Assembly: GCA_041655595.1 (NCBI GenBank)
Contig: JBBAFB010000001.1
Span: 2,168-66,167 of the forward strand
Direction of reading: 5' to 3'
Source of the DNA: Bacillota bacterium
Lineage (GTDB): Bacteria > Bacillota > DULZ01
DNA length: 64,000 nt
Shown here one piece after another: positions 13,645 through 40,508 of the stretch. Both the position numbers and the translations under genes were made by a program. Under the pieces are notes generated by a model, which saw only the letters and a list, made by a program, of their open reading frames with translations, was not told the origin of the DNA and did not search any database. The number at the start of each line of letters is the position of its first letter. The stretch's first letter is position 1.

Positions 13645-13655
13645 TTTGTATCACC

Positions 13656-14270: not shown

Positions 14271-14280
14271 GTCGTCCTCC

Positions 14281-15842: not shown

Positions 15843-15913
15843 CAAGATTCCTCCTTTCTTAATAAACATATTTTTCCTTTTTAATTTTATGCCCCCTAGT
15901 TGCAAAAGTTAGA

Positions 15914-15958
15914 CAACTAAAAAAGACCATTTTCGGCTTTGCCACTAAAAATGGTCTT
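15914..15958 (-). terminator. Strong rho-independent terminator between the acidic-protein gene and the spoIIIA operon
   Basis: 11-bp perfect stem AAGACCATTTT / AAAATGGTCTT with a 14-nt loop, followed on the minus strand by TTTTTAGTT. Confidence 0.6.
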
Positions 15959-24637: not shown

Positions 24638-24652
24638 AAACCCACCCCCTTA

Positions 24653-25777: not shown

Positions 25778-25845
25778 GATTGTCTGAAAGAAAAAAAAGC
25801 CTTCCTGCTCCGTTAATTTTTTCTTTACCCCATCCTGATCAACCC

Positions 25846-26734: not shown

Positions 26735-27189
26735 TCCTCTTCCTGGTCCTCAAACGCCATTCTAATTCTACCCGTGGAGGGCATAAGATAGATATAGCAA
26801 AAATCATTATAGGAGTTTTTTAAGATGATGGTACCCGCTTGGCTCGGTGCACCTATTAAACTAAATGTCAGTTGGGAATTAGTTAAAGGCACTTGTAAGA
26901 AAGTAATACCTTTAGGTAGATCCCTCTTGACTCTCCTTTTTGTACCCTCCTCGATGGCGTAATAAGTATTGTTTTTTGCAAAATTTATTTTAATTACTCC
27001 CGCGCTCCCATAAATAGATTCTTGCCTAACCCAGCGCATATCAGCAACAAGTTGGTTGGCGGCACCTCTCAATTGATAACCGGCAAGAATTTTTAAAAAA
27101 TTGGGAAACGAAACGGCAAATAGGGTAAAGATAATTGCCATTACCAAAACTAGTTCAATTAGAGTAAAACCGTAGTTCTTTTTGTTCAT
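26731..27189 (-). CDS. Prepilin-type minor pseudopilin (GspH/FimT-like)
   Basis: 152 aa. MNKKNYGFTLIELVLVMAIIFTLFAV class-III signal peptide. Confidence 0.6.
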   Translation of the reverse strand: MNKKNYGFTLIELVLVMAIIFTLFAVSFPNFLKILAGYQLRGAANQLVADMRWVRQESIYGSAGVIKINFAKNNTYYAIEEGTKRRVKRDLPKGITFLQVPLTNSQLTFSLIGAPSQAGTIILKNSYNDFCYIYLMPSTGRIRMAFEDQEEE

Positions 27190-27211
27190 GTCTGCTCCAT
27201 TAAAAGAGTTT

Positions 27212-28426
27212 TTAAAATATTGCTAGCATATTAAACAAAGGCAGCATTAAGGCAAGCACAACAACCCCAATCAGGCCGCCCATTATCAAAATCAAAATCG
27301 GCTCTATTAGTTTTGTAACTCTGTCCAAGGCTGTCGTAACTTCTTTGTCATAGTAATCTTTTAGTTTAAGTAAAAACTGGGAAACCTGCCCCGTTGCTTC
27401 CCCCACCTCAATCATTTTTATTAATAGTTCAGGGAAAATTGCTACTTTTGCCAAAGGCTCAGCCAGTTGCAATCCTTCTTCAAGGCTTGCACCGGCATCT
27501 GATAAACCACGGCTAAGTAAAGCATTATTTAGGGTCCCTTTTGTAACTTCCAGAGCCGTTAAAATAGGCACCCCTTTATCCAGTAAAGTACCCAAGACAT
27601 GACAAAAGCGGGAACTCATTATCTTAACAAGCAAACTGCCTACCAAAGGCATCTTTAAACAGAATGCATCCCAAAACAATCTTCCCTTTTCGGTTTGAAA
27701 ATAACTAAAAAGACTTAGCAGCAACAATAAAAAAAACAGGACTAAATAAAAGCCCCATTGTGCCAAAAAATAACTCAGGCTAAGAATTTTTGCAGTTAAC
27801 ATAGGAAGGGATGCCCCCATCCCTTCCAGCATAATGGAAAAGCTAGGTACCACATAGGAAAGTAAAAAAACCAAGGCACCGATGGTTAACATAAAAAGTA
27901 AAAAAGGGTAAGCTAAAGCGGCGGCAATCTTTTGCTGTAATTGTGCTTCTTTATCATAATGTGAAGACAACCAATCAAAAACTTCTTCCAAAATACCCCC
28001 TGTTTCGCCTGCCTCTACCATACCGGTCATGAGGGGCGGGAAAACATGATTATGTTTCCTCATAGAATTTGCCAAGTTCTCTCCTTTTTTTAAATCCTCC
28101 ATTGCATCCCGGATGGCAGATTTAAATCTTGGTGTGGTTTTAGCTGCGCTAATTTCTAAAATTTTCAATAAAGGCAGACCGGCCTTCAGCATCGCTGAAA
28201 CCTGGTAAGAAAAGGCGGATAAATCTTTGCTACCTACTTTTAATTTAGAAAAGCCCGGTTGAAGATGCTTATTTAAACTTCGTTTATTTAACTCTAGAAT
28301 GAATAGTCTTTTCTTTTTTAGGATATTTTCCGCGTCTTTCTGGTCGGAAACATAAAGGCTTCCCTTAACCAGCCTACCTTCCATATCTCTGGCCTTATAT
28401 TGGAATTCTGCCACTTTAATCCTCAC
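27212..28426 (-). CDS. pilC: Type IV pilus / T2SS inner-membrane platform protein PilC/GspF (module 2)
   Basis: 404 aa. Two T2SSF repeats and three TM segments. Confidence 0.8.
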   Translation of the reverse strand: MRIKVAEFQYKARDMEGRLVKGSLYVSDQKDAENILKKKRLFILELNKRSLNKHLQPGFSKLKVGSKDLSAFSYQVSAMLKAGLPLLKILEISAAKTTPRFKSAIRDAMEDLKKGENLANSMRKHNHVFPPLMTGMVEAGETGGILEEVFDWLSSHYDKEAQLQQKIAAALAYPFLLFMLTIGALVFLLSYVVPSFSIMLEGMGASLPMLTAKILSLSYFLAQWGFYLVLFFLLLLLSLFSYFQTEKGRLFWDAFCLKMPLVGSLLVKIMSSRFCHVLGTLLDKGVPILTALEVTKGTLNNALLSRGLSDAGASLEEGLQLAEPLAKVAIFPELLIKMIEVGEATGQVSQFLLKLKDYYDKEVTTALDRVTKLIEPILILIMGGLIGVVVLALMLPLFNMLAIF

Positions 28427-28562
28427 TCTTTAATTAATAAGTTAATGTATTTAAAATATTCTCACATAATAAATTCTACCTTCCTGTGACCCATTCCTGC
28501 AATTTTTCCATAAAAAATATCATTTATTTACATCTGTAAGTCAACAAATTAACATTGGACAT

Positions 28563-29993
28563 TTATTTAATTGATTTTTCGCGGATTGGTGATTTAAATT
28601 CTAATACTTTTTTATTTCCGTTTTCCTCATTTCCCGGTGCCGAACCCGATGTGGAAGCAATTTTGAGAGGCCTTGGTTTATTTTCATCCCAATCCGGAAA
28701 AAAGTCTCTAATATGCAGTATGTTTAATTTTGTACCGCCTCCCAAGTATTGAAACCCATCCTTTGCTATTACTACGCCACTGAATTCGTTAAAATGTCCT
28801 AAGGTCACTCTACCTTCCAGTGCAATCAACAAACCCTTCATGGATAAGTTTCCCCAGGACGGATCTACCCTAATGTCGCCACTTTTACTAATTATTATAA
28901 CTTCCTTAGGGGAATTATTACCCGGAAAACTCCACGTGTAATCGCCTTCAGCTAAAATTCTCACAACATTAGAAAGCGGCGGGGTATCTGAACTGCTTGC
29001 CGCATGGTAGTAGTCACTCCAGTCAAACTTGTCATTTAAAGCGAGATTAATTGTGGGCACTATAAAATCGGGGTAACGATTTTCATCATCTAATTTTTGG
29101 GCTTTACTACTTATATTACCACTAGCATTACCTAAGTAATAAACATTTTTGTTAATTGTATAGTAGTTGCCAAAATGGACATTGCCTTTAACATACACAT
29201 CTCCATTAAATTTGGGGCCCGTCACTTCGAGATCACCATTTATTATCACATCACCGTAAACCTCTCTATCTCCACCTGTAAAACTCAGATCACCATTAAC
29301 ATAAATGTATCCCGGATGGCTTTTGCTACCTAAAGAAGTAGAACCACCTCCCATGTTAACGGAACCATCAATATATATTTTTGTTACATTAATTGCAGCC
29401 CCTTGATTGAATCTACCTGAATCTAAGCCTCCGAATACAATAGTCCCATTTTCTCCGTTAATTGCATTTCCTGCAAAACTTACTGCCGGGTTTTCCATGT
29501 AAAGAAATATATCATCCATATCATCCCCATTAGTCTCGCCACCCCTGTTTATAGTGATAACAGCGCCCACTTTTCTAGTACTATTGCCAATTTTACCGGT
29601 GGATTCGATTGCGTAATCCCTAGTATCTCCACTAGAGTCACCAACTTGAGCTAGTGTAATAATTGCCAGGGGTTCTTCTTTATTATACAGTCCAAAATCT
29701 TCGCAGATAAGGGTTCCATCCTGAAAAATGTTTTCCACACGATGGAAAAACAGATCTGCATCTACATGATTACTATCCTCGGTAATTACCTTGTAAATTT
29801 CATCCACTGCATAATGGATTCCGGATTCCGCTATATAGTAGGTACTTTGGCTTTGGCTGTCCAGTTTAGTTTGTTTTAAATTTGAACTTGTGGCGTTAAT
29901 GATGGCAATACCTAAAATGGAGACCAAAGCAAGGCCCAGCAATGTTGCGACTAATGCAAAACCTGTTTGGTTTTTTAGTATTTTTTTCACCAC
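28563..29993 (-). CDS. PilX-N-domain protein with C-terminal G/N/D-rich beta-helix-like repeats (candidate pilus tip protein or adhesin)
   Basis: 476 aa. N-terminus GFALVATLLGLALVSILGIAIINATSSNLKQTK (PilX_N-like hydrophobic helix), then about 12 short repeats of the type NGDLSFTGG / GDVIINGDLEVTG / NGDVYVKGNVHFGN. Confidence 0.5.
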   Translation of the reverse strand: MVKKILKNQTGFALVATLLGLALVSILGIAIINATSSNLKQTKLDSQSQSTYYIAESGIHYAVDEIYKVITEDSNHVDADLFFHRVENIFQDGTLICEDFGLYNKEEPLAIITLAQVGDSSGDTRDYAIESTGKIGNSTRKVGAVITINRGGETNGDDMDDIFLYMENPAVSFAGNAINGENGTIVFGGLDSGRFNQGAAINVTKIYIDGSVNMGGGSTSLGSKSHPGYIYVNGDLSFTGGDREVYGDVIINGDLEVTGPKFNGDVYVKGNVHFGNYYTINKNVYYLGNASGNISSKAQKLDDENRYPDFIVPTINLALNDKFDWSDYYHAASSSDTPPLSNVVRILAEGDYTWSFPGNNSPKEVIIISKSGDIRVDPSWGNLSMKGLLIALEGRVTLGHFNEFSGVVIAKDGFQYLGGGTKLNILHIRDFFPDWDENKPRPLKIASTSGSAPGNEENGNKKVLEFKSPIREKSIK

Positions 29994-30004
29994 AACACCA
30001 CCTC

Positions 30005-30412
30005 CTAACGAATCTTTAAAACTGATGCGAGTCTATATTCTTCACCGTTTCCATCCTTAACCAAGATTTCTACTTTAATATCCCTACTTGTTACTGCTTC
30101 AACAAATAATTGATAATTGCCTTCAACAGCTATCTCATTTCCTTTTAATAATTTTCCTTCTTCCGATCTATAAACAATATCATCCAAGATAAGGGTGTTC
30201 CCTTCTGTATTAACAATATCTGCCTTTCTTATTTCCCTTGTTAAATAGTCCATCGCAGTTCTGGCATCTATAATAATATTTGTTTTTTCACTTTGAAAAC
30301 CAAAATATTTAAAGGAATTAGAAATAGGGGTAAAGATAACTGCCAGCACTACCCCTAATATTGCTAAAACAACCAGTAACTCTACTAAAGCAAAACCTCT
30401 AGCGGTCTTCAT
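30005..30412 (-). CDS. Prepilin-type minor pilin
   Basis: 135 aa. MKTARGFALVELLVVLAILGVVLAV class-III signal peptide (RG/FALVE). Confidence 0.65.
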   Translation of the reverse strand: MKTARGFALVELLVVLAILGVVLAVIFTPISNSFKYFGFQSEKTNIIIDARTAMDYLTREIRKADIVNTEGNTLILDDIVYRSEEGKLLKGNEIAVEGNYQLFVEAVTSRDIKVEILVKDGNGEEYRLASVLKIR

Positions 30413-30845
30413 TTAAAATGCCCCTTCCCTTCCAGGAATACAAGGCCTCGTATTGTACATCCAGTTTGCTCTTACTGCTGTCCTCATAAATTTTTGCTAT
30501 TACTCTGATTAGATTGTTATCCCCAACTTCTGCAAAACTGAGTTCAAGAAATTTGTGATCCCCATATTCGCGACCGAAGATATTTGGCCCTAGCTTCTCA
30601 TAACCTTCTTTTATTAATTCACCCTCTAAACCTTCAAAATTTATTTCCCTGCTTATACCATAAGCAAACTCCATGACATCCTTTCCAAGGTAGGTAGCAT
30701 CCAAGGTTTCCTCAGATTTTTGATTAGTTCTTGCCGCCAGGGTGAATAAAGGGAAAAAGGCGACTGCAATCATGACAATTATGGCTAAAGCAATCAGCAA
30801 TTCTATCAAAGTGAGTCCTAAACTATCAGCTTTAAAACATTTCAC
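30399..30845 (-). CDS. Prepilin-type minor pilin
   Basis: 148 aa. SLGLTLIELLIALAIIVMIAVAFFPL prepilin N-terminus. Confidence 0.6.
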   Translation of the reverse strand: MKCFKADSLGLTLIELLIALAIIVMIAVAFFPLFTLAARTNQKSEETLDATYLGKDVMEFAYGISREINFEGLEGELIKEGYEKLGPNIFGREYGDHKFLELSFAEVGDNNLIRVIAKIYEDSSKSKLDVQYEALYSWKGRGILNEDR

Positions 30846-30890
30846 TAAGGCCCACCCCTTAACGAAAGCTAAATTTTATTTCCAGGATAA

Positions 30891-32585
30891 TTAAACGATT
30901 ACTCTTAGCAACTCATCCAGTGAAACTAAACCTTTAGAAACCGCCAAAAGCCCTTGTTGCCTGAAGGTAACCATTCCTTCTTCTACTGCAACTTTTTTGA
31001 TCTCCCCGGCGGAACGCCTTTCTATAGCCATTTGAGCAACCCTGTCGGAGACTACTAATATTTCAAAAACCCCGAGCCTTCCTTGGTAACCGGTATAACC
31101 GCATTGAATACAGCCTTCGGATCTGTAGAGCCGGGTTTGTTTCTCCCCTTCCTCTACGGGGAAATCAGGTACAGTTTTCAGCAAGTCTCCGTGAGTTATG
31201 GTATAAGGCTCCTTACAATGGGGGCAAAGAATTCGGACTAATCTTTGGGCAATGACACAGGCTAGGGAAGAAGCGGTCAGAAATGGTTCGATGCCCATGT
31301 CATTAAGTCTGGTAATGGCCCCCGCGGAATCATTGGTGTGTAGGCTCGATAAAACCAAATGGCCTGTTAAGGAGGATTCAATTGCTATCCTTGCTGTTTC
31401 CTGGTCTCTAATTTCACCTACCATTACTATATCCGGATCATTTCTTAAAATTGAACGTAAGCCCGTCGGAAAAGTCAAGCCGGCCTGGATATTAACCTGC
31501 ATTTGATTAACTCCATCCAGCCTTCTTTCAACCGGGTCCTCAATGGTGATAATATGCTTGTCTTTTTGATTCAAAGTATTTAGAATAGCATATAGGGTAG
31601 TGCTTTTGCCGCTACCCGTGGGCCCTGTTGCCAGAATCATTCCATAGGGTAGCTTGATGACATTTTCCAACTTTGTATAATCATCACCCGAAAAACCCAG
31701 ATCCATAATGCTGAGCTGTTTAGCACCGCGATCCAAAATGCGCAAGGTCAATTTTTCTCCGTAAGCGGTGGGCAAAGAGGCCACACGTATATCTACCACA
31801 TTACCATCAACCTTTAAGGTGGCACGGCCATCTTGGGGAATTCTTCTTTCCGCAATATCCATATTAGCCATAACTTTAATTCTAGAAATCAAGGCTGGCA
31901 AAAGATGCCTGGGAGGAGTCATCACTTCATGAAGTACGCCATCTATCCGAAAACGAACCCTAAGACCTCTCTCCAAGGGCTCTATATGAATATCACTGGC
32001 CCTATCTGTGATTCCTTGCCCGATTATCATATTGGCTAGCTTTACGGCGGGTTTATCCCCCATTTCGGCAAAAGAAATTAAATCATTATCAAGTTCCTCA
32101 TCCGGAATATCTTCAATTTCCAATTGTGGCCGGATGTATTGTTCTATGAATAACATCAGTTCTGTGTCAGTTACCAAGACGGGTTTAATTTCCATACCCG
32201 ATAAAAGCCTCAGATCCTCCAAGGCAATTAAATTTCGTGGCTGGTTCATTGCTACCACTAAAGCCCCGTCCTCGAAGGCAACGGGTAGCGCTTGATAACG
32301 CTTTATTACAGCGGGGTCCAAAATACTAACAGCTTTTTTATCGACAGGAAAACTTTCTAAGGTAAGAAAAGGCACTCCCGACTGAGCAGCTATCGCCCTT
32401 GCCACCGATGCTTCCGTAGTAAAGCCCATTTCAACCAGCACTTGTCCTAAAAACAAGTCTTTTCCCTTACTTTGCTCTTGCTTAATTAAGGCAGCCTCCA
32501 GTTGGGCCATTGTAATTTCACCGGTCTCAACTAAAAAGCGTCCGGTATAATTGTGCTGTAGCTTATCCTTCAATGAGCAGTACAC
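30891..32585 (-). CDS. pilB: Type IV pilus assembly ATPase PilB/GspE (module 2)
   Basis: 564 aa. N-terminal T2SE_Nter domain, Walker A GPTGSGKSTTL, Asp box, tetracysteine CPHC...CIQC zinc motif. Confidence 0.85.
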   Translation of the reverse strand: MYCSLKDKLQHNYTGRFLVETGEITMAQLEAALIKQEQSKGKDLFLGQVLVEMGFTTEASVARAIAAQSGVPFLTLESFPVDKKAVSILDPAVIKRYQALPVAFEDGALVVAMNQPRNLIALEDLRLLSGMEIKPVLVTDTELMLFIEQYIRPQLEIEDIPDEELDNDLISFAEMGDKPAVKLANMIIGQGITDRASDIHIEPLERGLRVRFRIDGVLHEVMTPPRHLLPALISRIKVMANMDIAERRIPQDGRATLKVDGNVVDIRVASLPTAYGEKLTLRILDRGAKQLSIMDLGFSGDDYTKLENVIKLPYGMILATGPTGSGKSTTLYAILNTLNQKDKHIITIEDPVERRLDGVNQMQVNIQAGLTFPTGLRSILRNDPDIVMVGEIRDQETARIAIESSLTGHLVLSSLHTNDSAGAITRLNDMGIEPFLTASSLACVIAQRLVRILCPHCKEPYTITHGDLLKTVPDFPVEEGEKQTRLYRSEGCIQCGYTGYQGRLGVFEILVVSDRVAQMAIERRSAGEIKKVAVEEGMVTFRQQGLLAVSKGLVSLDELLRVIV

Positions 32586-32590
32586 CCCCC

Positions 32591-33130
32591 CTAATCAATA
32601 TAATAAGCAGTTGCATTTAAATCCGCTTTTATTATGCCCTCCCCCTCAGCTAATTTTTGGTTAGTGATGGAGATACTTTGTAAGGTCGTTAAATGGGGCT
32701 GGTCATAGAGATTACGAATAAATTTTAACAAACCTAAATAGTCCCCTTCAAAAACCACCCTTAGGGGCAACTGATAATAATTAGAGCCTTTCAAGGTGTC
32801 AAAAAAACGAATTTCAGATACTCGGCCCCCCGTTCCCAAAGCAGAATCTTGAACAGCGATGATTAAATCTTGTTCAGAAAGATTTTCGGGCAGAAGTTTT
32901 GTTAAAATATCAGACCGATCAATTAAATCCGGCACCCGTTCCTTCAAAAACAATAAACGAGTCACCCTTCCTTCCAAAATTGATATTTCTTGCTCCGTAA
33001 GTACGATATCGGTTCTCAATTCATCAAGGTACCGAAATTGCTGATAAAATTTAAATAATGACAGGACAACTAGGGTAACAATTACCAACAAAATGACTAT
33101 ATTTTGTCTCTTTATACTTTCAAAATCCAT
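32591..33130 (-). CDS. pilO: Type IV pilus assembly protein PilO (module 1)
   Basis: 179 aa. N-terminal TM (IVILLVIVTLVVLSLF), coiled coil, C-domain. Directly after pilN. Confidence 0.55.
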   Translation of the reverse strand: MDFESIKRQNIVILLVIVTLVVLSLFKFYQQFRYLDELRTDIVLTEQEISILEGRVTRLLFLKERVPDLIDRSDILTKLLPENLSEQDLIIAVQDSALGTGGRVSEIRFFDTLKGSNYYQLPLRVVFEGDYLGLLKFIRNLYDQPHLTTLQSISITNQKLAEGEGIIKADLNATAYYID

Positions 33131-33153: not shown

Positions 33154-33708
33154 CTAATTTCTTTTAGAAAACACTAAGTTGATTTCAAATTGGGTTTCCA
33201 TGTTTACACTGTCAGTGGAAAGATAACGACAGCGTAAATCGGAGACCCCCGGTAGTTGCTCTAAACCAGTTAAGTAGCCGGCGACCGTATTTTTATTATT
33301 TGCCCTACCCCTGATTCTAACTTCGCCGACTCGGTCCTTTTGGGAACTGTTGGCATTTAAATCGGTAAGCGTAATTTCTTGAGGTGTTAGTCGTCCAAAC
33401 TCGGCCAAAAACTCAAACCAATTCATTTCGCCTTCCTTCGCTGCTACTAAAATTCCACTCTTTTTTTCAACCTGCCCATAAATGTTTTCATAGGGTGCCA
33501 ATAATTTTATCTGTTCATTTAAGGTTTGCCGATAGGCTAGGGAGCCCTCCAATTGGTTTTGTAAAATGCTGTTGTTTAATAGAAGAAAACCATAAATCAG
33601 CAAAAAAGCAACTAAAATTACCGCGCCTGATAAAAGAAGAATCCTTTGCCACCGTTTAAAGGCTGTGCGTAATCGGTACTCCCTTGGAAGCAAACTAATT
33701 GATATCAA
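33154..33708 (-). CDS. pilN: Type IV pilus assembly protein PilN (module 1)
   Basis: 184 aa. MISISLLPREYR PilN motif, then TM. Confidence 0.65.
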   Translation of the reverse strand: MISISLLPREYRLRTAFKRWQRILLLSGAVILVAFLLIYGFLLLNNSILQNQLEGSLAYRQTLNEQIKLLAPYENIYGQVEKKSGILVAAKEGEMNWFEFLAEFGRLTPQEITLTDLNANSSQKDRVGEVRIRGRANNKNTVAGYLTGLEQLPGVSDLRCRYLSTDSVNMETQFEINLVFSKRN

Positions 33709-33714
33709 TTTTTA

Positions 33715-34662
33715 TCACTCCCATCCCCTGCAAGCCAAACATGAAGCCAAACTGTATTCGCTGGAAACAGCCTTTAAATCACCAACATAATTTAGCATTT
33801 CTGCCGGCCTAACTACATCAATCATTAAACCGATTTCCTGCTTAAATTTATCTGACAAACTTTTAGCAATTGGCTCTATACCGCTTAATAATATTTTTTC
33901 CACGTTCTTGACACCGCGACTAGATTGGTAAAAGCCTATAGTGGATCTAATATTTCTGTTCAATTCCTCAACGATCTTTTCACTGTGAATAAAATCTTTC
34001 TTTACCCCGTCCTGCCAATACAGGGGCATTGTCCGTGCCAAACGTGGGAGTAAATTATCTGCTACGAGCATATTACCAAAACCCAGGCCGATGTTTAAAA
34101 TAGCAACTGCACTTTTTTCTCCGATCTTTTTTAACAATCTCAACAAGGTTAAGTTAAGAACCTCTATTTCAAGGGGGTTTAATTTTGCTTTTTCTAAAAC
34201 CCATAAAAAGTCCAGCAGCATCTCCTTGTTACCGGCAACCAAAATTAGTTCCAACATGGTCTTTTCGCCATCCTTCCTGCTACCGATAATGCTGTAATCC
34301 AATTCTACGGATTCAAGCGGTACAGGCAGGTGTTCCTGCGCTTGAAAACGCACTAGGGAATCCACCCGGTTTAAAGGAACATGGGGAAAGCTGGCAAAGC
34401 GAATCAAAACATCTTGGTTTGAGATGCCAATCACAACATTACGGCTTCGGAAGTCTCCTTTTTGCCACAAAGCCTTTAAGCCCTGGACCACCAGGTCCCG
34501 ATTGGTTATCAGTCCCTCCCGCATCCCCCCCCGGGGAAGGGTAACCTCCGCAAATGAGGCAAGGGACAATTGTTTGTTTCTCTTATATAATTCAACTCCC
34601 CGAATAACCTCCGTGTCAAATTCCAGACCAACAACGCTTTTGCCCTTTAAAACACGCCTCAT
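33715..34662 (-). CDS. pilM: Type IV pilus assembly protein PilM (module 1)
   Basis: 315 aa actin-like ATPase fold. Precedes pilN by 7 nt. Confidence 0.7.
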   Translation of the reverse strand: MRRVLKGKSVVGLEFDTEVIRGVELYKRNKQLSLASFAEVTLPRGGMREGLITNRDLVVQGLKALWQKGDFRSRNVVIGISNQDVLIRFASFPHVPLNRVDSLVRFQAQEHLPVPLESVELDYSIIGSRKDGEKTMLELILVAGNKEMLLDFLWVLEKAKLNPLEIEVLNLTLLRLLKKIGEKSAVAILNIGLGFGNMLVADNLLPRLARTMPLYWQDGVKKDFIHSEKIVEELNRNIRSTIGFYQSSRGVKNVEKILLSGIEPIAKSLSDKFKQEIGLMIDVVRPAEMLNYVGDLKAVSSEYSLASCLACRGWE

Positions 34663-34678
34663 ACTCCCACCTCTTATC

Positions 34679-35392
34679 TTAACTTCGCAAATAAACAGCT
34701 AATTGATCTAGGGCCCTTTTTAGCAACCGCGAAACTTGCCTTTGATTTGTGCCGATTTCTGAAGCAATTTTATTTTGAGTTAACTCCTGAAAAAAATTCA
34801 TATAAATGATTTTTTGTTGTAAACCCGACAATTTGCTGATTGCCTCCTTGAGAAGCAGTTGATCTTCAATAGGCAACTTAAAACTTTCGTGATATAAGTT
34901 TTTTATTTGTGAAACATCAACCTCTTCCAAGGTAATAGTACCTGCTAACATGGCCTCTACGATACCCTCTTCTTTAATATTCATAGCCTCGGCAACCTCA
35001 CTTAAATTAGGTTCCCTCTGCAAAGTTTGCCGCAAACTATCAGTGACAGCTAAAATTTGAGTTTTCAACTTATTCAGACCCGGAGGTAAATCAAAGCTGA
35101 CTTCCAACTGCAGTTCCCTTTGTATTTCTCCAATAATATAATAAGTTGCATAGGTTGCAAACAGGACACCCCTAGCTGGATCATAATTTTTTAAGGCTTT
35201 TAAAACCCCCTCATATCCTGCTTGGGTCAAATCCTGCCAGGAAGCAGTTTTAACATACCTGTTTGCATAGTGGTAGACTAAGCCGGTGGCCGCATCCACA
35301 ATCTCATTAACCAAACCCTCGTGGGGATTATAATGGTACTGCAAAACTAAGGCTTCTAATCTTTGGTTTTTTCTATCAGCCATTGCAGCCAC
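34679..35392 (-). CDS. Sigma-70 family (group 3, SigB/F/G/FliA-like) RNA polymerase sigma factor embedded in the pilus operon
   Basis: 237 aa. Region 2: YANRY...DLTQAGYEGVLKALKNYDPARGVLFATYATYYIIGEIQREL. Region 4 HTH: QNKIASEIGTNQRQVSRLLKRALDQL. Lies between pilC1 and pilM1 on the same strand with short gaps. Confidence 0.7.
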   Translation of the reverse strand: MAAMADRKNQRLEALVLQYHYNPHEGLVNEIVDAATGLVYHYANRYVKTASWQDLTQAGYEGVLKALKNYDPARGVLFATYATYYIIGEIQRELQLEVSFDLPPGLNKLKTQILAVTDSLRQTLQREPNLSEVAEAMNIKEEGIVEAMLAGTITLEEVDVSQIKNLYHESFKLPIEDQLLLKEAISKLSGLQQKIIYMNFFQELTQNKIASEIGTNQRQVSRLLKRALDQLAVYLRS

Positions 35393-35406: not shown

Positions 35407-36618
35407 TTAGATTCCTGATTGCACTACGGCATTAAAAATAGGCAGATATAAAGAAATAACCATTAATCCAACGACTAGCCCTATGCCAACCATTAACATC
35501 GGTTCCAACATCGCCGATAAGCCCTTGGTAATGATGGTAACTTCTTCTTCAAAGAACTCAGAAACTTTATTCAACATTTCCGAAAGAGTACCAGATTGCT
35601 CTCCAACTGCAACCATTTGCACAACCATCGGCGGAAACAAATTGCTTTCTTTTAAAGGCTCGGCCAGGCCTGCCCCCTCTTCAATCTTTTCTTTGGCCGC
35701 TGCCAAGGCATTAACTATAAGCTGGTTGCCTGTGGCCTTCCCTGAAACATCCAAAGCCTGTAGGATTGGAATTCCGCCATTTAATAAGGTTGCAAGGGTC
35801 CTGGTAAATCTGGCGGTACTGGCTTTCTGTAATAAAGATCCAAAAACCGGCAACCTGAATTTTAATTTGTCCAGCCAAAGAGTGCCGGCAACGGATGCAG
35901 ATAAATATTTTATACCGCCAAACAAACCGCCTGCAATTAAAATCCAAAAATACCAGCTTCCCCTTAAGGAATTTGAAGCAGCCAAAACCATTTTAGTAGG
36001 TAAAGGCAGCTCCGTTCCCGGCGGGAACATCTTTACAAAAACAGGTACTATGAATACAAGCATGGCGATGATCATTAAAAAGGCAAATCCGCCGATCATA
36101 CTGGGATAGAAGGTAGCGGAACGAATATTATCCCGTAAAGTTTTATCCTTTTGTAATTGCTCGGAAAGATGTACTAAACTAGTATCCAATGTCCCCCCCA
36201 ACTCTCCTGCCTTGACCATTCCGGTAAATAAGCTGGGAAAAATCTTGGATTGTTCTTCCAGGGCCTCCCCAAAACTCATTCCCGCCTCCACATTAATTGC
36301 CACTGCCTCAACCACTTTTTTAAAACGAAGGTTGACCGTTTGGTCCTCCAAAGCAAAGAGACATTGGGTTAGGGGAATGCCTGCCTGTAGCATAGAAGCT
36401 AATTGGCGACTAAAAAGGCTGATTTCCCCTAAAGTGACCTTCTTTTCTTTTTTAAAAAAACTCAAACTTGCAATGGTTGTCCTTTTTTCCCTTATATCAA
36501 TAATGAAATAGCCCATATCCTTTAAGTGGGTTATTGCTCGGTTAAGATCCCCCGCCTTTAATTGGCCCACAGAAATTCGGCCTTGGTTGTCCAGTATTTC
36601 ATAAGAGAAAGTTCTCAT
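35407..36618 (-). CDS. pilC: Type IV pilus inner-membrane platform protein PilC (module 1)
   Basis: 403 aa. Two T2SSF repeats and TM helices. Confidence 0.8.
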   Translation of the reverse strand: MRTFSYEILDNQGRISVGQLKAGDLNRAITHLKDMGYFIIDIREKRTTIASLSFFKKEKKVTLGEISLFSRQLASMLQAGIPLTQCLFALEDQTVNLRFKKVVEAVAINVEAGMSFGEALEEQSKIFPSLFTGMVKAGELGGTLDTSLVHLSEQLQKDKTLRDNIRSATFYPSMIGGFAFLMIIAMLVFIVPVFVKMFPPGTELPLPTKMVLAASNSLRGSWYFWILIAGGLFGGIKYLSASVAGTLWLDKLKFRLPVFGSLLQKASTARFTRTLATLLNGGIPILQALDVSGKATGNQLIVNALAAAKEKIEEGAGLAEPLKESNLFPPMVVQMVAVGEQSGTLSEMLNKVSEFFEEEVTIITKGLSAMLEPMLMVGIGLVVGLMVISLYLPIFNAVVQSGI

Positions 36619-37826
36619 TTTGCCTCGTCCTTCTTTTTATCAAAACTTGCCACCAGCTCTTGCAACATTTTAATCCGATCCGGTGTTTCCTCTGCCCACA
36701 AAATATAGTGGGGATTGGCCGAGTCTCCAGACAAGTTTTCTGAGATATGCATACTTGTTGAAATAACAGGAGACATTTCCGTTAAAATAGTTCTTAAGGC
36801 TTTTAACCTTTCCATAGCATAACTACCGGAGGCTGAAGTTATGGTAGCTTTAATTTTTTCTCTGGCAACATCAATGGCCTTCAAGCTGATGTAAATCTGC
36901 GGTTCCAACTCTGGAGGGCAAATTACAATAATTTCCCTACTTAATTCCGGAAAATTAAAGGCGAGCAACTCTAACCCGTCGTAACCGAAGGAATCCATCC
37001 TGGTAACCGCATCTTTTGCCACTAAATGCTCAAATCTGTAAATAAAAACGGTCTTATTTCTCCCCTCCAACCGATCAAGCTCCATTGCAACTCGCTGAAG
37101 CTGACTCCAGCTTTCAATGATGGCTTCATCAAAAACCAACAACCTGTTGCCAATGGTTACGTATTTGTTTAAAGGAATACCTGTTTCTTTAATCAGCTCC
37201 ACCAAGCGACTTGGCTCAACTACATAGGTTTTTAATTCTTTAAAAGCGAAGTTAATTATTTCACCATCATCTAAATAAAAATTTTCTACGATATCCACCG
37301 CTGCAATTAATTCCTTAATTTTAATTAAATCATCCGGAGTGCCTTGAACCCAAATAGAACGCGGATTTGATTCCAGCACAAAACTTTTTACAGGGATTCC
37401 CAAGGTGTTAATCAAGGTTTGCAATTGATTTCCTCGAATATATATAAAATCAAATCTTGTTAAGGTAGCCGTTGTAAAACCGACATCCCGCAATTTTTGT
37501 TCATTACCCACCACCAATATTTTTCCATCTTTAATGTAGCTTAGGCCCTCATTTTTAAGAAGTAGATCCAGGGCCTCCATGGGACTGACATTCTCCACCG
37601 AAAAAGTTACCTTGACCGGTTTTTCAATTAAAACAATATTGGTATTAGTTTTAATAGCCAATGCGGATAAAACGTCTCTTAAATCCGCTTCTCTGACATC
37701 CAAGGAAATGATCTCTTCCCGGGCACTGACACCGACTGTGCCCGTACTAAAAGCCGGAAGCAGCAAGCCGATAAAAACCAAACAGATTATGTAAACCTTT
37801 TTACTGTTTTTCATTCTGCAACCCAC
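36615..37826 (-). CDS. Secretin N-domain-only protein (STN/N0 plus at least two Secretin_N repeats; no secretin pore domain)
   Basis: 403 aa. Signal peptide. ISLDVREADLRDVLSALAIKTNTNIVL...VKVTFSVENVSPMEALDLLLKNEGLSY matches the secretin N0/STN consensus. Later SIWVQGTPDDLIKIKELIAAVD and NRLLVFDEAIIESWSQLQRVAMELD resemble Secretin_N (N1/N2) repeats. The C-terminal ~150 aa show no secretin core. Confidence 0.55.
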   Translation of the reverse strand: MGCRMKNSKKVYIICLVFIGLLLPAFSTGTVGVSAREEIISLDVREADLRDVLSALAIKTNTNIVLIEKPVKVTFSVENVSPMEALDLLLKNEGLSYIKDGKILVVGNEQKLRDVGFTTATLTRFDFIYIRGNQLQTLINTLGIPVKSFVLESNPRSIWVQGTPDDLIKIKELIAAVDIVENFYLDDGEIINFAFKELKTYVVEPSRLVELIKETGIPLNKYVTIGNRLLVFDEAIIESWSQLQRVAMELDRLEGRNKTVFIYRFEHLVAKDAVTRMDSFGYDGLELLAFNFPELSREIIVICPPELEPQIYISLKAIDVAREKIKATITSASGSYAMERLKALRTILTEMSPVISTSMHISENLSGDSANPHYILWAEETPDRIKMLQELVASFDKKKDEAK

Positions 37827-37834
37827 CTGTTTTG

Positions 37835-38326
37835 CTATTTTCTTGGAGCAAACGCTATCGTTATTTCCCTAGTTTCATTATTTAGAACAATATAATCCCT
37901 GTTGATCTCTGTTAACTCCCATGTGTCAGCTATCTTATCGCCTATCGCCAAAATATAACTGACTTGTTGCGCTTTTATAATTGCCAAATCCTGTTCACCC
38001 TTAATCACTCCTAAAAGCTCAATAGGTGCACTAAAAGGATCAACAACTGCCTCTAAATAATCTTGGGAGGGAGTCAATTGCCCGCCTTCCTGCCTTTCTA
38101 GCTGAGGGAGAATTTGGGCAAGTTCATCTTGCAGTTGCTGCTCCGTTAAACCTGGAATACCGGGTATGACAGGTGTTTGGGTTGAGCCTTGCAAAAAAAA
38201 CCTAATACCGAAAGCAACTAAAATAAGGGTTAATAAAACTCCTATTAAAATATACAACCTAAGTTTTCCCTTTCCCGCCTCTTCCTTTGAAAAACCAGGC
38301 TGGGACCAATTAAATGGTAGTTTCAT
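37835..38326 (-). CDS. PilP/GspC-HR-like single-TM protein
   Basis: 163 aa from the ATG at 38326 (GGAG RBS). The ORF-track start at 38383 is a TTG inside a terminator. TM LYILIGVLLTLILVAFGI, Pro/Gln-rich linker, C-terminal beta-domain DPFSAPIELLGVIKGEQ...YILAIGDKIADTWELTEINRDYIVL with PilP-like pattern. Confidence 0.5.
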   Translation of the reverse strand: MKLPFNWSQPGFSKEEAGKGKLRLYILIGVLLTLILVAFGIRFFLQGSTQTPVIPGIPGLTEQQLQDELAQILPQLERQEGGQLTPSQDYLEAVVDPFSAPIELLGVIKGEQDLAIIKAQQVSYILAIGDKIADTWELTEINRDYIVLNNETREITIAFAPRK

Positions 38327-38370
38327 TTTCGGCTCCGCCAATCTTTTACCCCCTTTAATTGATAATTTGC

Positions 38371-38406
38371 AATAAAAAACCAAGCTGATTTAGCCTGGTA
38401 GCTTGG
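38371..38406 (-). terminator. Rho-independent terminator downstream of pilT
   Basis: Minus-strand hairpin CCAAGCT-(13 nt)-AGCTTGG followed by TTTTTTATT. Confidence 0.5.
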
Positions 38407-38613
38407 CGATCCTAGCCCCTACGGCGGGACTTTAGACCCATAGCTTTGCAGTCATCATCTTTCAATGACTTTGCCTTTAACTGCTAAAATTCTTATATCT
38501 TGCATGATATCTAAATCATAGCAATACCTATGTGCTGTCCTATTTTTCTCTTAACTTTAAATTTCGACAGAAAGAGTCCATTCCCTGCAAATATTATTAA
38601 TATTTATTAATTA

Positions 38614-39708
38614 TTATTCCCAATAGCTTGAAGAAGCAAAGGAAGCTCTTTGCATTAATCTATCGAGTTCCACCTTATCCACGGAATGTTCAAGCGCCGT
38701 TTCTCCGGAAATTTTTCCCGAACTGTAAAGTTCGGCTAAAGCTTGATCCATAGTATGCATGCCGCTGCTTTTCGACGTTTGCATGGTATTATAAAGTTGA
38801 TGTTCTTTTCCCTCTCTGATTAAATTTCTAACAGCAGGGGAATCCAGTAAAATCTCCGTCGCCAAAACCCTGCCCGCCCCGTCCTGAGTGGGTAACAATT
38901 GTTGGGAAACCACTGCCTTTAAAGTGTTGGATAACTGCTGCCGCACTTGTTCTCTGCTCTGATCTTGAAAAACATCAATAATGCGGCTGATAGTTAAGGG
39001 GGCTGTTTGTGTATGTAAGGTCGAAAATACCAAGTGACCGGTTTCTGCCGCCGTTAATGCAATAGAGATACTATCCAAATCCCTCATTTCTCCGATGAGA
39101 ATCACATCGGGGTCGTGTCGAAGAACATGGCGCAAAGCATGTGCAAAGGAATGGGTGTCTATACCTACCTCTCTTTGTTTGACGATGGATTTTTGATGTT
39201 TATGCAAAAATTCAATAGGATCTTCTATGGTAACGATGTTTACATGCCTTTCTCTGTTAATTAAATCAACCATTGCAGCTAAGGTAGTAGATTTACCGCT
39301 GCCCGTAGGTCCGGTGATCAAGACTAAACCCCTTGGCAAATAGCACAATTCTTTAATTTGGGCAGGAAGTCCTAATTGATCTATATCAGGAATTTTAAAA
39401 GGCACAATCCTAAAAACAGCCGCTAAACTACCCCTTTGTCTCATGATATTGCCCCTAAACCGTGCAACCCCGGGTAAGGCATAGGATACATCTAATTCTA
39501 ATTTTTCATTAAACTGCTGAAAATCATTTAACAGTGGGGATAAAAATTCTTCCATGCCTTGAGGAGTAAAGGGTGGCGAATCTAAGGCAATCAGCCTACC
39601 TTGCACCCGGATCATCGGAGGAATACCTACGGCAACATGTAGGTCTGAGGCCTGCAGATGGGTAGCCTGTTGTAGCAAAAAATCCAAACTGGGCACAAAA
39701 TCAGACAT
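38614..39708 (-). CDS. pilT: Twitching-motility retraction ATPase PilT
   Basis: 364 aa. Walker A GPTGSGKSTTL, AIRNLIRE-like C-terminal PilT motif (AVRNLIREGK), no N-terminal extension. Confidence 0.85.
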   Translation of the reverse strand: MSDFVPSLDFLLQQATHLQASDLHVAVGIPPMIRVQGRLIALDSPPFTPQGMEEFLSPLLNDFQQFNEKLELDVSYALPGVARFRGNIMRQRGSLAAVFRIVPFKIPDIDQLGLPAQIKELCYLPRGLVLITGPTGSGKSTTLAAMVDLINRERHVNIVTIEDPIEFLHKHQKSIVKQREVGIDTHSFAHALRHVLRHDPDVILIGEMRDLDSISIALTAAETGHLVFSTLHTQTAPLTISRIIDVFQDQSREQVRQQLSNTLKAVVSQQLLPTQDGAGRVLATEILLDSPAVRNLIREGKEHQLYNTMQTSKSSGMHTMDQALAELYSSGKISGETALEHSVDKVELDRLMQRASFASSSYWE

Positions 39709-39889
39709 CTTTCCACTCCCTAGTTAAAACAATTTTTTCTCTATTACAAATATAGCATAAAATAAGGAAATGGGGAAGATATTGTTGAAAAAGCTGAAGG
39801 CTGAAAGCGAAAGGTTAAAAACCAGTTAAGAGGAGGATAGAGGTTTTTGTAGCCTTTATCTTGGTTTGGGGTTGGTGGGTTTTTAGCAG

Positions 39890-39945
39890 GTAGAAAGTAG
39901 AAGGTAGAAAGTAGAAAGTAGAAGGTAGAAGGTAGAAAGTAGAAA
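39890..39945. repeat. Tandem heptanucleotide repeat (GTAGAAR)x8 in the pilA-pilT intergenic region
   Basis: Eight perfect head-to-tail copies: GTAGAAA GTAGAAG GTAGAAA GTAGAAA GTAGAAG GTAGAAG GTAGAAA GTAGAAA. The last copy merges with the pilA terminator U-tract. A G/T-rich tract GGTTTGGGGTTGGTGGGTTTTT precedes it at 39862-39883. Confidence 0.9.
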
Positions 39946-39972
39946 AAACCGGTTGGAAGGGACCAACCGGTT
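39940..39972 (-). terminator. Strong rho-independent terminator of the major pilin gene
   Basis: Perfect 10-bp stem AACCGGTTGG / CCAACCGGTT with 6-nt loop, followed on the minus strand by TTTTTTCT. Confidence 0.75.
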
Positions 39973-40061: not shown

Positions 40062-40424
40062 CTAGGCTTCCGGTTCGCCTAATGTTACTTTGTAATTATC
40101 ACCATCCTTGGTAATAACATACTCTCTTTCATCATCAGATCCATATGGGTTTTTAGGTTCCTCCATTAAATATTTTGGTACTAAACCATAAAAATCGGTA
40201 CCTTTTCCAGGAAGGGTCCCTTCTGTAGCTTCATATAGAGAGATTGCACCTTTTATGGTTCTGATATTGGCATCGTTTGCGACATTTGCTGCTTTTTCGG
40301 TTGCGTTATTGTAGACCGGGATAGCTATTGCTACCAGGACACCTATAATACCTACTACTACCATTAGTTCAACCAAAGTAAAACCTTTTTTGTTTTTCAG
40401 TTGTCTTTGGATGTAAGAAATCAT
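40062..40424 (-). CDS. pilA: Major type IV pilin (PilA-like, class III signal peptide)
   Basis: 120 aa. MISYIQRQLKNKKG/FTLVELMVVVGIIGVLVAIAIP has a consensus prepilin peptidase site (G-F-T-L-x-E). Strong RBS AAGGGAGGA. Followed by its own strong terminator. Confidence 0.85.
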   Translation of the reverse strand: MISYIQRQLKNKKGFTLVELMVVVGIIGVLVAIAIPVYNNATEKAANVANDANIRTIKGAISLYEATEGTLPGKGTDFYGLVPKYLMEEPKNPYGSDDEREYVITKDGDNYKVTLGEPEA

Positions 40425-40508
40425 TTTTATTCCTCCCTTTTAGTTGTTTGAAATCCTCTATTTAATGTTATGGTATAAAGGGAAAGGTTTTAGACATTTT
40501 TCGTAGAA

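What the first reader, a model, noticed from the sequence alone, without database searches (positions are those of the whole stretch)
34679..35392. Dedicated group-3 sigma factor embedded between pilC and pilMNO
A complete sigma-70 family protein sits in-line inside the pilus assembly operon, with 15-nt and 17-nt intergenic gaps. Its conserved region 2.1-2.4 and region 4 HTH place it in the SigB/F/G/FliA-like group. A T4P locus with its own alternative sigma factor suggests a feed-forward circuit: once the operon is transcribed, the sigma redirects RNAP to pilin or minor-pilin promoters such as those of pilA and module 2. No -10/-35 elements for it could be recognised by eye, so its regulon is unknown.
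Basis: partly seen in the sequence, partly recalled or inferred. Interest (0 to 1): 0.7.

Follow-up and report, generated by a model that had tools for sequence, protein, structure and literature searches.

The report
Pilus-operon sigma factor driving pilin transcription
A complete alternative sigma factor sits inside a type IV pilus operon; it belongs to a seemingly undescribed family, found almost always in pilus loci of anaerobic Firmicutes, that most likely switches on the major pilin gene downstream of a c-di-GMP riboswitch.

Summary
ORF 34679-35392 (-) encodes a 237-aa sigma-70 protein with regions 2, 3 and 4, packed between pilC and pilM with gaps of 14 and 16 nt. It is closest to SigB/F/G but falls below every curated cutoff.

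It belongs to a sharply separated family with a YESFKLPIED signature. Relatives were found in 156 species-level genomes. Of 80 loci fetched, 76 carry pil genes, and 34 have exactly pilC-sigma-pilM. No anti-sigma gene travels with it.

A bipartite motif, TGTCTAAaa-N14/15-GGTATAAC, resembles SigB/SigF promoters. [quoted passage not shown] The window's pilA has the exact -35 box at the right place, but a degenerate -10 (ACCATAAC).

A c-di-GMP-I riboswitch with a terminator lies at 38394-38485 (-), upstream of the operon segment that holds the sigma. Such riboswitches recur before sigma genes, operon heads and pilA leaders in related loci.

Best model: c-di-GMP, then riboswitch read-through, then machinery plus sigma, then pilA transcription. 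All of this is inferred in silico. I found no evidence that the sigma controls the second pilus module. I rate it a new variant of a known kind.

The parts
34679..35392 (-). Group-3 sigma factor gene (237 aa). GTG start with an AAAGGGGG ribosome-binding site. Member of the pilus-locus sigma family.
35407..36618 (-). pilC (T2SSF platform protein). Its stop lies 14 nt before the sigma start.
   Evidence: PF00482, 192 bits
32591..34662 (-). pilM (33715-34662), pilN (33154-33708) and pilO (32591-33130). pilM starts 16 nt after the sigma stop.
38394..38485 (-). c-di-GMP-I riboswitch aptamer. It lies between pilT and the T2SSC-like gene, upstream of the operon segment that contains the sigma.
   Evidence: RF01051, 65.8 bits against a gathering score of 35; own model R1, 69.2 bits. 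The same position is occupied in L002 and L081.
38371..38399 (-). Intrinsic terminator hairpin ACCAGGCU-AAAUC-AGCUUGGU plus a U-run. Its 5' arm and loop overlap the 3' strand of the aptamer's closing stem, which is the layout of a predicted ON switch.
   Evidence: terminator scan; RNAfold, -11.1 kcal/mol; P1 UUUAGC/GCUAAA is mutually exclusive with the hairpin
36615..38341 (-). T2SSC-like gene (37835-38341; likely TTG start at 38341 after a GGGGG ribosome-binding site) and a gene with secretin N-domains only (36615-37826). These are the first genes after the riboswitch.
   Evidence: Conserved in about 30 related loci.
40463..40498 (-). Putative cognate promoter of pilA: AATGTCTAAAACCTTTCCCTTTATACCATAACATTA. 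The -35 box TGTCTAAAA is exact. The -10 is ACCATAAC where the family has GGTATAAC, with the longer of the two family spacings. The site ends 38 nt before the pilA ATG.
40062..40424 (-). pilA, the major pilin (N-terminus KGFTLVELMVVV) and the predicted target gene.
39947..39972 (-). Strong intrinsic terminator after pilA, so the sigma-operon transcript must begin downstream of this terminator (pilA's own upstream boundary with pilD has no predicted terminator).
38614..39708 (-). pilT retraction ATPase, the gene immediately upstream of the riboswitch.
   Evidence: The order pilT, riboswitch, T2SSC is also seen in L002 and L081.

Best explanation
The gene encodes a pilus-dedicated group-3 sigma factor. 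It is co-transcribed with the assembly machinery (T2SSC-like, secretin-N protein, pilC, sigma, pilMNO). A c-di-GMP-I riboswitch with a terminator sits at the head of that segment and is predicted to allow read-through when c-di-GMP is bound. [quoted passage not shown] Pilin is then produced in bulk only when the machinery operon is on. The layout parallels flagellar FliA/SigD driving flagellin.

Shown by computation: the sigma's identity, its conserved linkage to pilus genes, the motif and its position, and the riboswitch. Inferred: that this sigma reads this motif, that the switch is ON-type, and that pilA is the main target.
For: Identity. Regions 2, 3 and 4 are present. The SigB/F/G profile scores 139.7 bits. 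The closest solved structures are a SigF chain from a SpoIIAB complex (1l0o, 134 bits) and 8x6g_H (127 bits).

Distinct family. About 75 clusters of 233-240 aa score 137-503 bits, followed by a gap to sporulation SigF at about 100 bits. Signature residues F171, L173, P174, E176, D177 and N216, Q217, S221, R222 are invariant.

Linkage. 156 species-level genomes encode a relative. Of 80 fetched loci, 76 have pil genes, 34 have pilC-sigma-pilM and 14 have pilC-sigma-pilin.

Promoter. 33 of 47 pilA upstream regions carry GTCT[AG]-spacer-G[GT]ATA[AT], at one spacing or one base longer (28 and 5 sites). A weight-matrix scan of 938 kb gave 51 hits of at least 15 bits. That is about one per locus, nearly all upstream of pilA. 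About 15 sites in loci outside the training set scored 23-35 bits. Twenty Markov shuffles of the window never exceeded 16.2 bits. The motif resembles the SigB consensus GTTTAA-N14/15-GGGTAT (PMC9847131) and a SigF promoter GTTTA-N15-TCTCATAAT (PMC5829568).

Window site. The exact TGTCTAAAA occurs only twice in 128 kb of both strands, and one copy lies in the 84-nt pilA leader. The closest relative with pilA, L002, has GTCTAAAA-N-GGAATAAC at the same spacing.

Riboswitch. RF01051 scores 65.8 bits in the window. The terminator overlaps the aptamer's closing stem. There are 48 riboswitch hits in related loci: 17 loci have one directly upstream of a sigma gene, at least 7 have one at the head of a sigma-containing operon, and 12 have one in the pilA leader.

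Independent sample. In metagenome contigs carrying the exact motif, 4-5 of the 5 contigs where it lies next to a pilin gene also carry the sigma. None of about 75 other hits do.
Against: The window's own pilA site scores only 9.0 bits overall. Its -10 block lacks the conserved GG (ACCATAAC), so it would not be called without the family context. That -10 also looks like sporulation sigma-F/G or sigma-E/K types.

There is no experimental evidence of any kind. Only +/-8 kb around each sigma was scanned, so the regulon could be larger.

The motif contains TATAAC, so a sigma-A promoter helped by an activator bound at TGTCTAA is not excluded.

Three family members (L047, L053, L058) sit in a housekeeping neighbourhood without pil genes.

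No promoter for the sigma operon itself was identified. The ON logic of the riboswitch rests on thermodynamic folding only.
Confidence: 0.68

Rival explanations
1. The sigma is pilus-linked, but the conserved pilA motif is read by another factor. One option is sigma-A with an activator bound at TGTCTAA. Another, in this spore former, is a sporulation sigma such as F/G or E/K. The embedded sigma would then control other, unseen genes.
For: The -10 half contains TATAAC, which matches the sigma-A hexamer at 5 of 6 positions. The window's variant CATAAC resembles SigF/G-type -10 elements (PMC5829568). It also resembles the CATAAAAT element upstream of spoIIIAA at 15917-15882. The window encodes SigK and the spoIIIA operon.
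Against: The -35 position reads TGTCTA, which matches TTGACA at only 2 of 6 positions, yet it is nearly invariant. The spacing is fixed at 15 or 16 nt. The motif co-occurs with the sigma in genome loci and in an independent metagenome sample. Only one site per locus was found, always at pilA.
Confidence: 0.17
2. The sigma has a broad regulon covering surface, biofilm or developmental genes, of which pilA is only the locally visible member. It is 'dedicated' only in the sense of where it is encoded.
For: Only flanks of up to 8 kb were examined. Three family members lie outside pilus loci. Some loci carry 2-3 tandem paralogs, which suggests diversification.
Against: No second high-scoring site turned up in 938 kb of flanks (one locus, L052, has two weaker hits) or in the 64-kb window. 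In Nostoc, the SigF regulon is essentially pilA alone, which shows that a one-gene regulon is plausible (PMC6495340).
Confidence: 0.12
3. The gene is a decaying or functionless sigma paralog that is merely carried along in the operon.
For: It scores below all curated equivalog and subfamily cutoffs.
Against: The ORF is intact and has a good ribosome-binding site. All three Pfam regions pass. There are 22 invariant and 21 nearly invariant positions across 35 members that share only 31-63% identity. Synteny is conserved across many families of Bacillota.
Confidence: 0.02

Closest known systems
Bacillus/Clostridia SigF, SigG and SigB (group-3 SigB/F/G subfamily, TIGR02980)
   Same: These are the closest relatives by sequence. 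The SigB/F/G profile scores 139.7 bits, and the best PDB chain is the SigF chain of 1l0o at 134 bits. The region 2-3-4 architecture is the same. The inferred promoter GTCTAA-N14-GGTATA resembles the SigB consensus GTTTAA-N14-GGGTAT (PMC9847131).
   Different: It scores below the subfamily cutoff of 234 and all equivalog cutoffs. About 14 residues of the SigF region 3.2 linker are missing and replaced by YESFKLPIED. The region 4.2 helix reads NQR(K/Q)VSRLL, where SigF has SQVQVSRLEK. No SpoIIAB/RsbW-type anti-sigma or STAS partner is linked. It is encoded in a pilus operon, not a sporulation or stress operon.
Cyanobacterial SigF (Synechocystis, Nostoc punctiforme)
   Same: [quoted passage not shown] This is the best functional analogue.
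   Different: It comes from a different phylum. The papers read here do not describe it as embedded in the pilus operon; in Nostoc it is activated by SigJ in a sigma cascade. No riboswitch input is described. Orthology was not tested here; the SigF model NF005644 scored only 116.6 bits against a cutoff of 261.
FliA/SigD (sigma-28) in flagellar operons, including the C. difficile flgB operon behind a c-di-GMP-I riboswitch
   Same: The logic is the same. A group-3 sigma is encoded among machinery genes and turns on the filament subunit gene. In C. difficile the sigma-containing operon is gated by a c-di-GMP-I riboswitch (PMC6200980).
   Different: It is a different subfamily (FliA/WhiG model 74.5 bits against a cutoff of 189.6) and serves a different machine. 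The C. difficile class I riboswitches shown in PMC6200980 lower downstream expression, whereas this one is predicted to raise it. No FlgM-like exported anti-sigma is evident.
[quoted passage not shown]
   Same: It is a c-di-GMP-controlled group-3 sigma that targets type IV pilus biosynthesis genes in Rubrobacter, Actinoplanes and other genera (PMC12871210).
   Different: There, c-di-GMP acts at the protein level by arming an anti-sigma, which inhibits the sigma. Here the signal is read by an RNA switch upstream of the sigma gene and is predicted to activate. The sigma-28 family is also different.
C. difficile Cdi-2-4 riboswitch upstream of pilA1
   Same: It is a c-di-GMP riboswitch that allows read-through into type IV pilus genes in a Clostridium-class organism (PMC6200980).
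   Different: It is a class II riboswitch placed directly on the pilin operon, with no sigma intermediary. The window uses a class I aptamer on the machinery-plus-sigma segment. Syntrophomonadaceae-type loci combine both layers: a riboswitch before the sigma and another in the pilA leader.

Membership tests
Sigma-70 superfamily (TIGR02937) | Score at or above the curated cutoff, with regions 2 and 4 present | tested here: met
   TIGR02937 scores 86.3 bits against a cutoff of 42.9. Pfam Sigma70_r2 scores 42.4 and Sigma70_r4 scores 45.6, both above their gathering scores.
Group-3 sigma factors | Regions 2, 3 and 4 present, no region 1.1, size about 25-30 kDa | tested here: met
   Sigma70_r3 scores 34.8 bits against 25.3. 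The protein is 237 aa, and region 2 begins about 35 residues from the N-terminus.
SigB/SigF/SigG subfamily (TIGR02980) | Score at or above the curated subfamily cutoff of 234.35 bits | tested here: not met
   139.7 bits. This is the best-scoring model, but it is clearly below the cutoff.
Sporulation SigF, SigG and stress SigB equivalogs | Score at or above the equivalog cutoffs | tested here: not met
   SigF 116.0 against 321; SigG 107.2 against 372 and 96.3 against 457; SigB 88.1 against 315.
SigB/F/G-type partner-switching regulation | An adjacent anti-sigma kinase (SpoIIAB/RsbW) and an anti-anti-sigma (STAS domain) | tested here: not met
   No such domains appear among about 58 window ORFs scanned. 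No conserved non-pilus gene family accompanies the sigma in 80 loci. A partner encoded elsewhere in the genome cannot be excluded.
FliA/WhiG subfamily (TIGR02479) | Score at or above the cutoff of 189.6 bits | tested here: not met
   74.5 bits.
Pilus-locus sigma family (defined here) | Length 233-240 aa; YESFKLPIED in region 3.2; NQRxVSR in region 4.2; encoded among pil genes | tested here: met
   The window protein has YHESFKLPIED and TNQRQVSR. It scores 137-503 bits against family members, compared with about 100 bits against SigF. It lies between pilC and pilM.
Pilus-locus sigma family (defined here) | Cognate motif TGTCTAA-N14/15-GGTATAAC upstream of the major pilin gene | tested here: inconclusive
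   The window has an exact -35 box at the correct position and spacing. Its -10 is ACCATAAC, and the total score is 9.0 bits against 22-35 bits in most loci.
c-di-GMP-I riboswitch (RF01051) | Covariance-model score at or above the gathering score of 35 bits, located in a 5' leader with an expression platform | tested here: met
   65.8 bits over the full-length model, positions 1-87. A terminator hairpin follows immediately. Ligand binding cannot be tested with these tools.

The most novel reading that the evidence does not exclude
A widespread, previously undescribed sigma family specific to Bacillota forms a three-tier cascade: c-di-GMP riboswitch, then a pilus-operon-encoded sigma, then the major pilin promoter. 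This would be an RNA-gated mirror image of the flagellar cascade of riboswitch, SigD and flagellin. In Syntrophomonadaceae-type loci it is elaborated into a coherent feed-forward AND gate, with riboswitches on both the sigma gene and the pilA leader, plus tandem sigma paralogs.
Probability: 0.5. Interest if true: 0.75.

Novelty: new variant of a known kind. Interest (0 to 1): 0.66.

Why it matters
Regulation of type IV pili in monoderm anaerobes is poorly understood outside C. difficile and C. perfringens. These anaerobes include syntrophs, sulfate reducers, heliobacteria and deep-subsurface Desulforudis.

A dedicated sigma with a recognisable promoter would have three uses. It would explain how pilin is expressed at high level only when the machinery is on. 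It would tie pilus production to c-di-GMP through RNA rather than protein receptors. It would also give annotators a simple rule: the sigma family plus the motif marks the major pilin gene among many pilin-like genes.

It would supply a compact orthogonal sigma/promoter pair for genetic tools in Clostridia. Finally, it would be a third independent case, after cyanobacterial SigF and actinobacterial WhiG, of a group-3 sigma recruited to pilin expression.

Tried and rejected
(1) I scanned the window with the weight matrix for further sites upstream of the second pilus module, the PilX-like 476-aa gene, pilB1 or the sigma operon. None was found. The best other hit, at 15917-15882, lies upstream of spoIIIAA and is more likely a sigma-E-type promoter.

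(2) I looked for an anti-sigma or anti-anti-sigma partner by clustering all ORFs from 80 loci and by Pfam scans of about 58 window ORFs. None was found.

(3) I scanned metagenome contigs for the exact motif. Most of the 81 sites are chance or unrelated recurring sequences, because only 15 bases are specified. The result is useful only as a small co-occurrence check.

(4) I first read the conserved 'ATCGTC...GGAGGTG' element upstream of pilA in Syntrophomonadaceae loci as a possible second promoter type. I rejected that reading: the real motif lies about 280 nt upstream, and this conserved stretch belongs to the pilA leader that carries the c-di-GMP-I riboswitch, just downstream of its aptamer and terminator.

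(5) The sigma-70 promoter scan gave no convincing promoter for the sigma operon between pilT and the riboswitch.

(6) Seven literature searches found no description of a sigma factor embedded in a type IV pilus operon in Firmicutes. The searchable library is incomplete, so this is not proof of novelty.

(7) I did not run a phylogeny against SigB/F/G/FliA reference sets, structure prediction or the large representative search. Profile scores already placed the protein.

Full report
**Observation**

The ORF reported at 34679-35392 exists exactly as described. It lies on the minus strand, encodes 237 aa and starts with GTG. An AAAGGGGG ribosome-binding site sits 6 nt upstream of the GTG.

Pfam finds sigma-70 regions 2 (residues 36-94), 3 (112-151) and 4 (184-231), all above their gathering scores. 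The flanking genes are pilC (35407-36618, T2SSF, 192 bits) and pilM, pilN and pilO (33715-34662, 33154-33708, 32591-33130).

The whole 22-43 kb region, read on the minus strand, is a double pilus locus:
- a MerR-like gene, pilB1, pilD and pilA;
- pilT;
- a T2SSC-like gene, a gene with secretin N-domains only, pilC, the sigma, then pilM, pilN and pilO;
- pilB2, minor pilins, a PilX-like 476-aa gene, pilC2, three more pilin-like genes, a second pilM and a second pilN.

**Classification**

In NCBIfam the best model is the SigB/SigF/SigG subfamily at 139.7 bits (E = 1.2e-40). This is well below its curated cutoff of 234. The models for sporulation SigF and SigG, for SigB and for FliA/WhiG all fail their cutoffs too. 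Only the sigma-70 superfamily model passes.

A family profile searched against PDB sequences puts a SigF chain (1l0o) and 8x6g_H on top, at 134 and 127 bits. FliA chains score about 65-69 bits.

The protein is therefore a genuine group-3 sigma close to SigB/F/G, but it is not a member of any curated subfamily. A second sigma gene in the window (44349-45059, + strand) is a bona fide SigK at 364 bits against a cutoff of 252. The spoIIIA operon lies at about 12.5-15.9 kb. The host is thus an endospore-forming member of the Bacillota, and this sigma is additional to the sporulation set.

**A distinct family**

The homology search returned about 75 clusters of 233-240 aa scoring 137-503 bits. A clear gap follows, down to sporulation SigF proteins at about 100 bits.

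An alignment of 35 members, which share 31-63% identity with the window protein, has 22 invariant positions. These include F171, L173, P174, E176 and D177 (the signature YESFKLPIED in region 3.2) and N216, Q217, S221 and R222 in the region 4.2 helix. Compared with Bacillus SigF, the family lacks about 14 residues of the 3.2 linker. Its 4.2 recognition helix reads NQR(K/Q)VSRLL, where SigF has SQVQVSRLEK.

**Conserved linkage to pili**

A scan of one genome per species found 156 genomes encoding a relative, and 80 loci were fetched. They come from Desulforudis, Desulfotruncus, Desulfoscipio, Desulfocucumis, Heliobacterium, Heliorestis, Dethiobacter, Acidaminobacter, many Syntrophomonadaceae, and Oscillospiraceae MAGs.

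I mapped the window's pilus proteins onto these loci:
- 76 of 80 loci have pil genes;
- 34 have exactly pilC-sigma-pilM;
- 14 have pilC-sigma-pilin;
- Syntrophomonadaceae-type loci have pilB-sigma(-sigma)-sigma-pilA, with 2-3 tandem paralogs.

Three loci (L047, L053, L058) are exceptions. Their sigma sits in a housekeeping neighbourhood of ffh, rimM, trmD, lepB, ylqF and rnhB.

Clustering all ORFs of the loci showed that every widely shared gene family is a pilus component. No anti-sigma-like gene travels with the sigma. None was found among the window ORFs scanned either. The reverse is true.

**A cognate promoter-like motif**

The major pilins of these loci share the N-terminus KGFTLVELMVVV. 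Of 47 regions upstream of such genes, 33 carry GTCT[AG]-spacer-G[GT]ATA[AT]. Two spacings occur that differ by one base (28 and 5 sites). The consensus is tGTCTAAaa-N14/15-GGTATAAC.

I built a weight matrix from these sites and scanned all loci, 938 kb on both strands. This gave 51 hits of at least 15 bits. That is about one per locus, and nearly all are co-oriented with and upstream of pilA.

About 15 of these sites lie in loci that were not in the training set: L002, L012, L016, L019, L029, L033, L034, L041, L043, L046, L049, L059, L071, L074 and L079. They score 23-35 bits. Twenty Markov shuffles of the window never exceeded 16.2 bits.

The -35 element matches the sigma-A hexamer poorly: TGTCTA shares 2 of 6 positions with TTGACA. 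The architecture instead resembles the SigB consensus GTTTAA-N14/15-GGGTAT (PMC9847131) and a SigF promoter GTTTA-N15-TCTCATAAT (PMC5829568). That is what one would expect for a relative of SigB/F/G.

An exact-pattern scan of metagenome contigs returned mostly chance hits. However, 4-5 of the 5 contigs where the motif lies next to a pilin gene also carry the sigma, and none of about 75 other hits do.

**The window's own site**

The 84-nt pilD-pilA spacer contains AATGTCTAAAACCTTTCCCTTTATACCATAACATTA at 40498-40463. The site ends 38 nt before the pilA ATG.

The -35 box is exact. TGTCTAAAA occurs only twice in both strands of the window. The spacing is the longer of the two family classes. The -10, however, reads ACCATAAC where the family has GGTATAAC, so the full score is only 9.0 bits.

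L002 is the closest relative that includes pilA, with 57% sigma identity. It has GTCTAAAA-N-GGAATAAC at the same spacing and scores 27.1 bits. This subclade also differs from the rest of the family in regions 2.3-2.4 (for example YYIIGEIQRELQ against HCIIGEIRHELR). That difference may go with a shifted -10 preference, but two examples are too few to test this.

pilA is followed by a strong terminator at 39972-39947, which separates it from the pilT and sigma operon downstream. No comparable site precedes the second pilus module, the PilX-like gene or pilB1.

**An upstream c-di-GMP input**

Rfam finds one element in the window: a full-length c-di-GMP-I aptamer at 38485-38394 (-), scoring 65.8 bits against a gathering score of 35. 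It lies between pilT and the T2SSC-like gene.

A terminator hairpin with a U-run follows it directly. RNAfold closes the aptamer with a stem UUUAGC/GCUAAA, whose 3' strand overlaps the terminator's 5' arm and loop. Ligand-stabilised closure should therefore prevent termination, which would make this an ON switch. This is an inference from folding only.

The downstream gene probably starts at TTG 38341, just after a GGGGG ribosome-binding site. The riboswitch thus gates the T2SSC-like gene, the secretin-N gene, pilC, the sigma and pilMNO.

I built a covariance model from these aptamers. It found 48 riboswitches in the related loci:
- at the same position in the window's subclade (L002, L081);
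- at the head of pilB-pilT-pilC-sigma operons (L017, L018, L024, L026; tandem pairs in L062, L072, L080);
- directly upstream of sigma genes in 17 loci;
- in the pilA leader, between the motif and the start codon, in 12 loci.

Terminators follow the aptamers in the six examples I folded.

**Model**

Elevated c-di-GMP permits read-through into the machinery operon. The sigma is then made together with PilC and PilMNO, and it directs RNA polymerase to the pilA promoter.

In Syntrophomonadaceae-type loci, a second riboswitch on the pilA leader would create a coherent feed-forward AND gate.

The sequence-level findings above are computed results. Three steps are inferences: the link between this sigma and this motif, the ON logic of the switch, and the size of the regulon.

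**Comparison with known systems**

- By sequence, the closest relatives are SigF, SigG and SigB. Membership fails on the score cutoffs and on the missing partner-switching genes.
- By function, the closest analogue is cyanobacterial SigF, whose regulon in Nostoc is essentially pilA alone (PMC6495340).
- By architecture, the closest parallel is FliA/SigD in flagellar operons. In C. difficile the flgB operon is preceded by a c-di-GMP riboswitch and part of the c-di-GMP regulon is SigD-dependent, and pilA1 lies behind a class II riboswitch (PMC6200980).
- By signal, actinobacterial WhiG is controlled by c-di-GMP through the anti-sigma RsiG and targets pilus genes in Rubrobacter and other genera (PMC12871210).

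Seven literature searches found no description of a sigma embedded in a type IV pilus operon in Bacillota. A review of monoderm pili does not mention sigma factors. The searchable library is incomplete, so novelty is probable, not proven.

**Verdict**

It needs two changes: the predicted target is pilA only, and the circuit has a c-di-GMP riboswitch input.

I rate this a new variant of a known kind. It is a distinct group-3 sigma subfamily with conserved embedding in pilus operons, a deducible promoter and RNA-level second-messenger control.

Noticed in passing
window 44349-45059 (+): An intact sporulation sigma factor SigK gene (NF004471, 364 bits against a cutoff of 252) lies next to the pilus locus and diverges from a HAD-hydrolase gene. 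It is not interrupted by a skin-like element.
   Followed up: partly
window 12490-15917 (-): The spoIIIA operon is here (spoIIIAA, AB, AC/AD, AE). A GTCTAA-N17-CATAAAAT element at 15917-15882 lies just upstream of spoIIIAA. It was the best non-pilA hit to the motif matrix (16.1 bits) and is probably a sigma-E-type promoter.
   Followed up: partly
window 39884-39945: A heptanucleotide tandem repeat (GTAGAAA on the + strand, 8 copies, 91% matches) sits directly after the pilA terminator and before the pilT promoter region. Its function is unknown.
   Followed up: no
window 36615-38341 (-): A 403-aa protein has STN and Secretin_N domains but no C-terminal secretin domain. It is preceded by a small T2SSC-like protein. 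The pair is conserved in about 30 related pilus loci, which is odd for organisms presumed to be monoderm.
   Followed up: partly
window 22440-32585 (-): A second pilus or T2SS-like module follows pilO after only 5 nt. It comprises pilB2, two minor pilins, a PilX_N 476-aa protein, pilC2, three pilin-like genes, a 374-aa unknown, and second copies of pilM and pilN. It has no riboswitch and no sigma motif of its own.
   Followed up: partly
L012, L016, L019, L022, L028, L034, L046, L051, L059, L060, L079: Syntrophomonadaceae-type loci carry two or three tandem paralogs of the sigma, often each behind its own c-di-GMP-I riboswitch. In L019 (6694-6783) and L079 (6165-6252), the riboswitch before the first paralog is the c-di-GMP-I-GGC variant (RF03167).
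   Followed up: partly
L029 11070-11168: Another c-di-GMP-I riboswitch precedes a 605-aa pilin-like gene in the same locus, so large minor pilins or adhesins may also be c-di-GMP gated.
   Followed up: no
L047, L053, L058: Three family members are not in pilus loci. They sit beside the housekeeping genes ffh, rimM, trmD, lepB, ylqF and rnhB and a ComM/Mg-chelatase-like gene. L053 has only a weak motif hit of 16 bits.
   Followed up: partly
L101, L110, L115, L117, L118, L121, L123, L152, L153; also L103, L105, L106, L131, L134, L140, L141: Two recurring sequences unrelated to pilins match the exact motif pattern in metagenomes. One is TGTCTAAC[AG/T]AT[TA]AT[AG]TT[AGT]CC[TAG]GGTATAAC, found in 9 environmental metagenome contigs. 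The other is TGTCTAAATTCAATTACTTTGAGGTATAAC, found in 7 contigs, at least three from human gut metagenomes. Their nature is unknown.
   Followed up: no
window 43040-43552 (-): A MerR-family HTH gene (170 aa) lies immediately upstream of pilB1. A homologue occurs at the head of the pilus locus in L008 only. It may be a second regulator of the pilB1-pilD-pilA unit.
   Followed up: no
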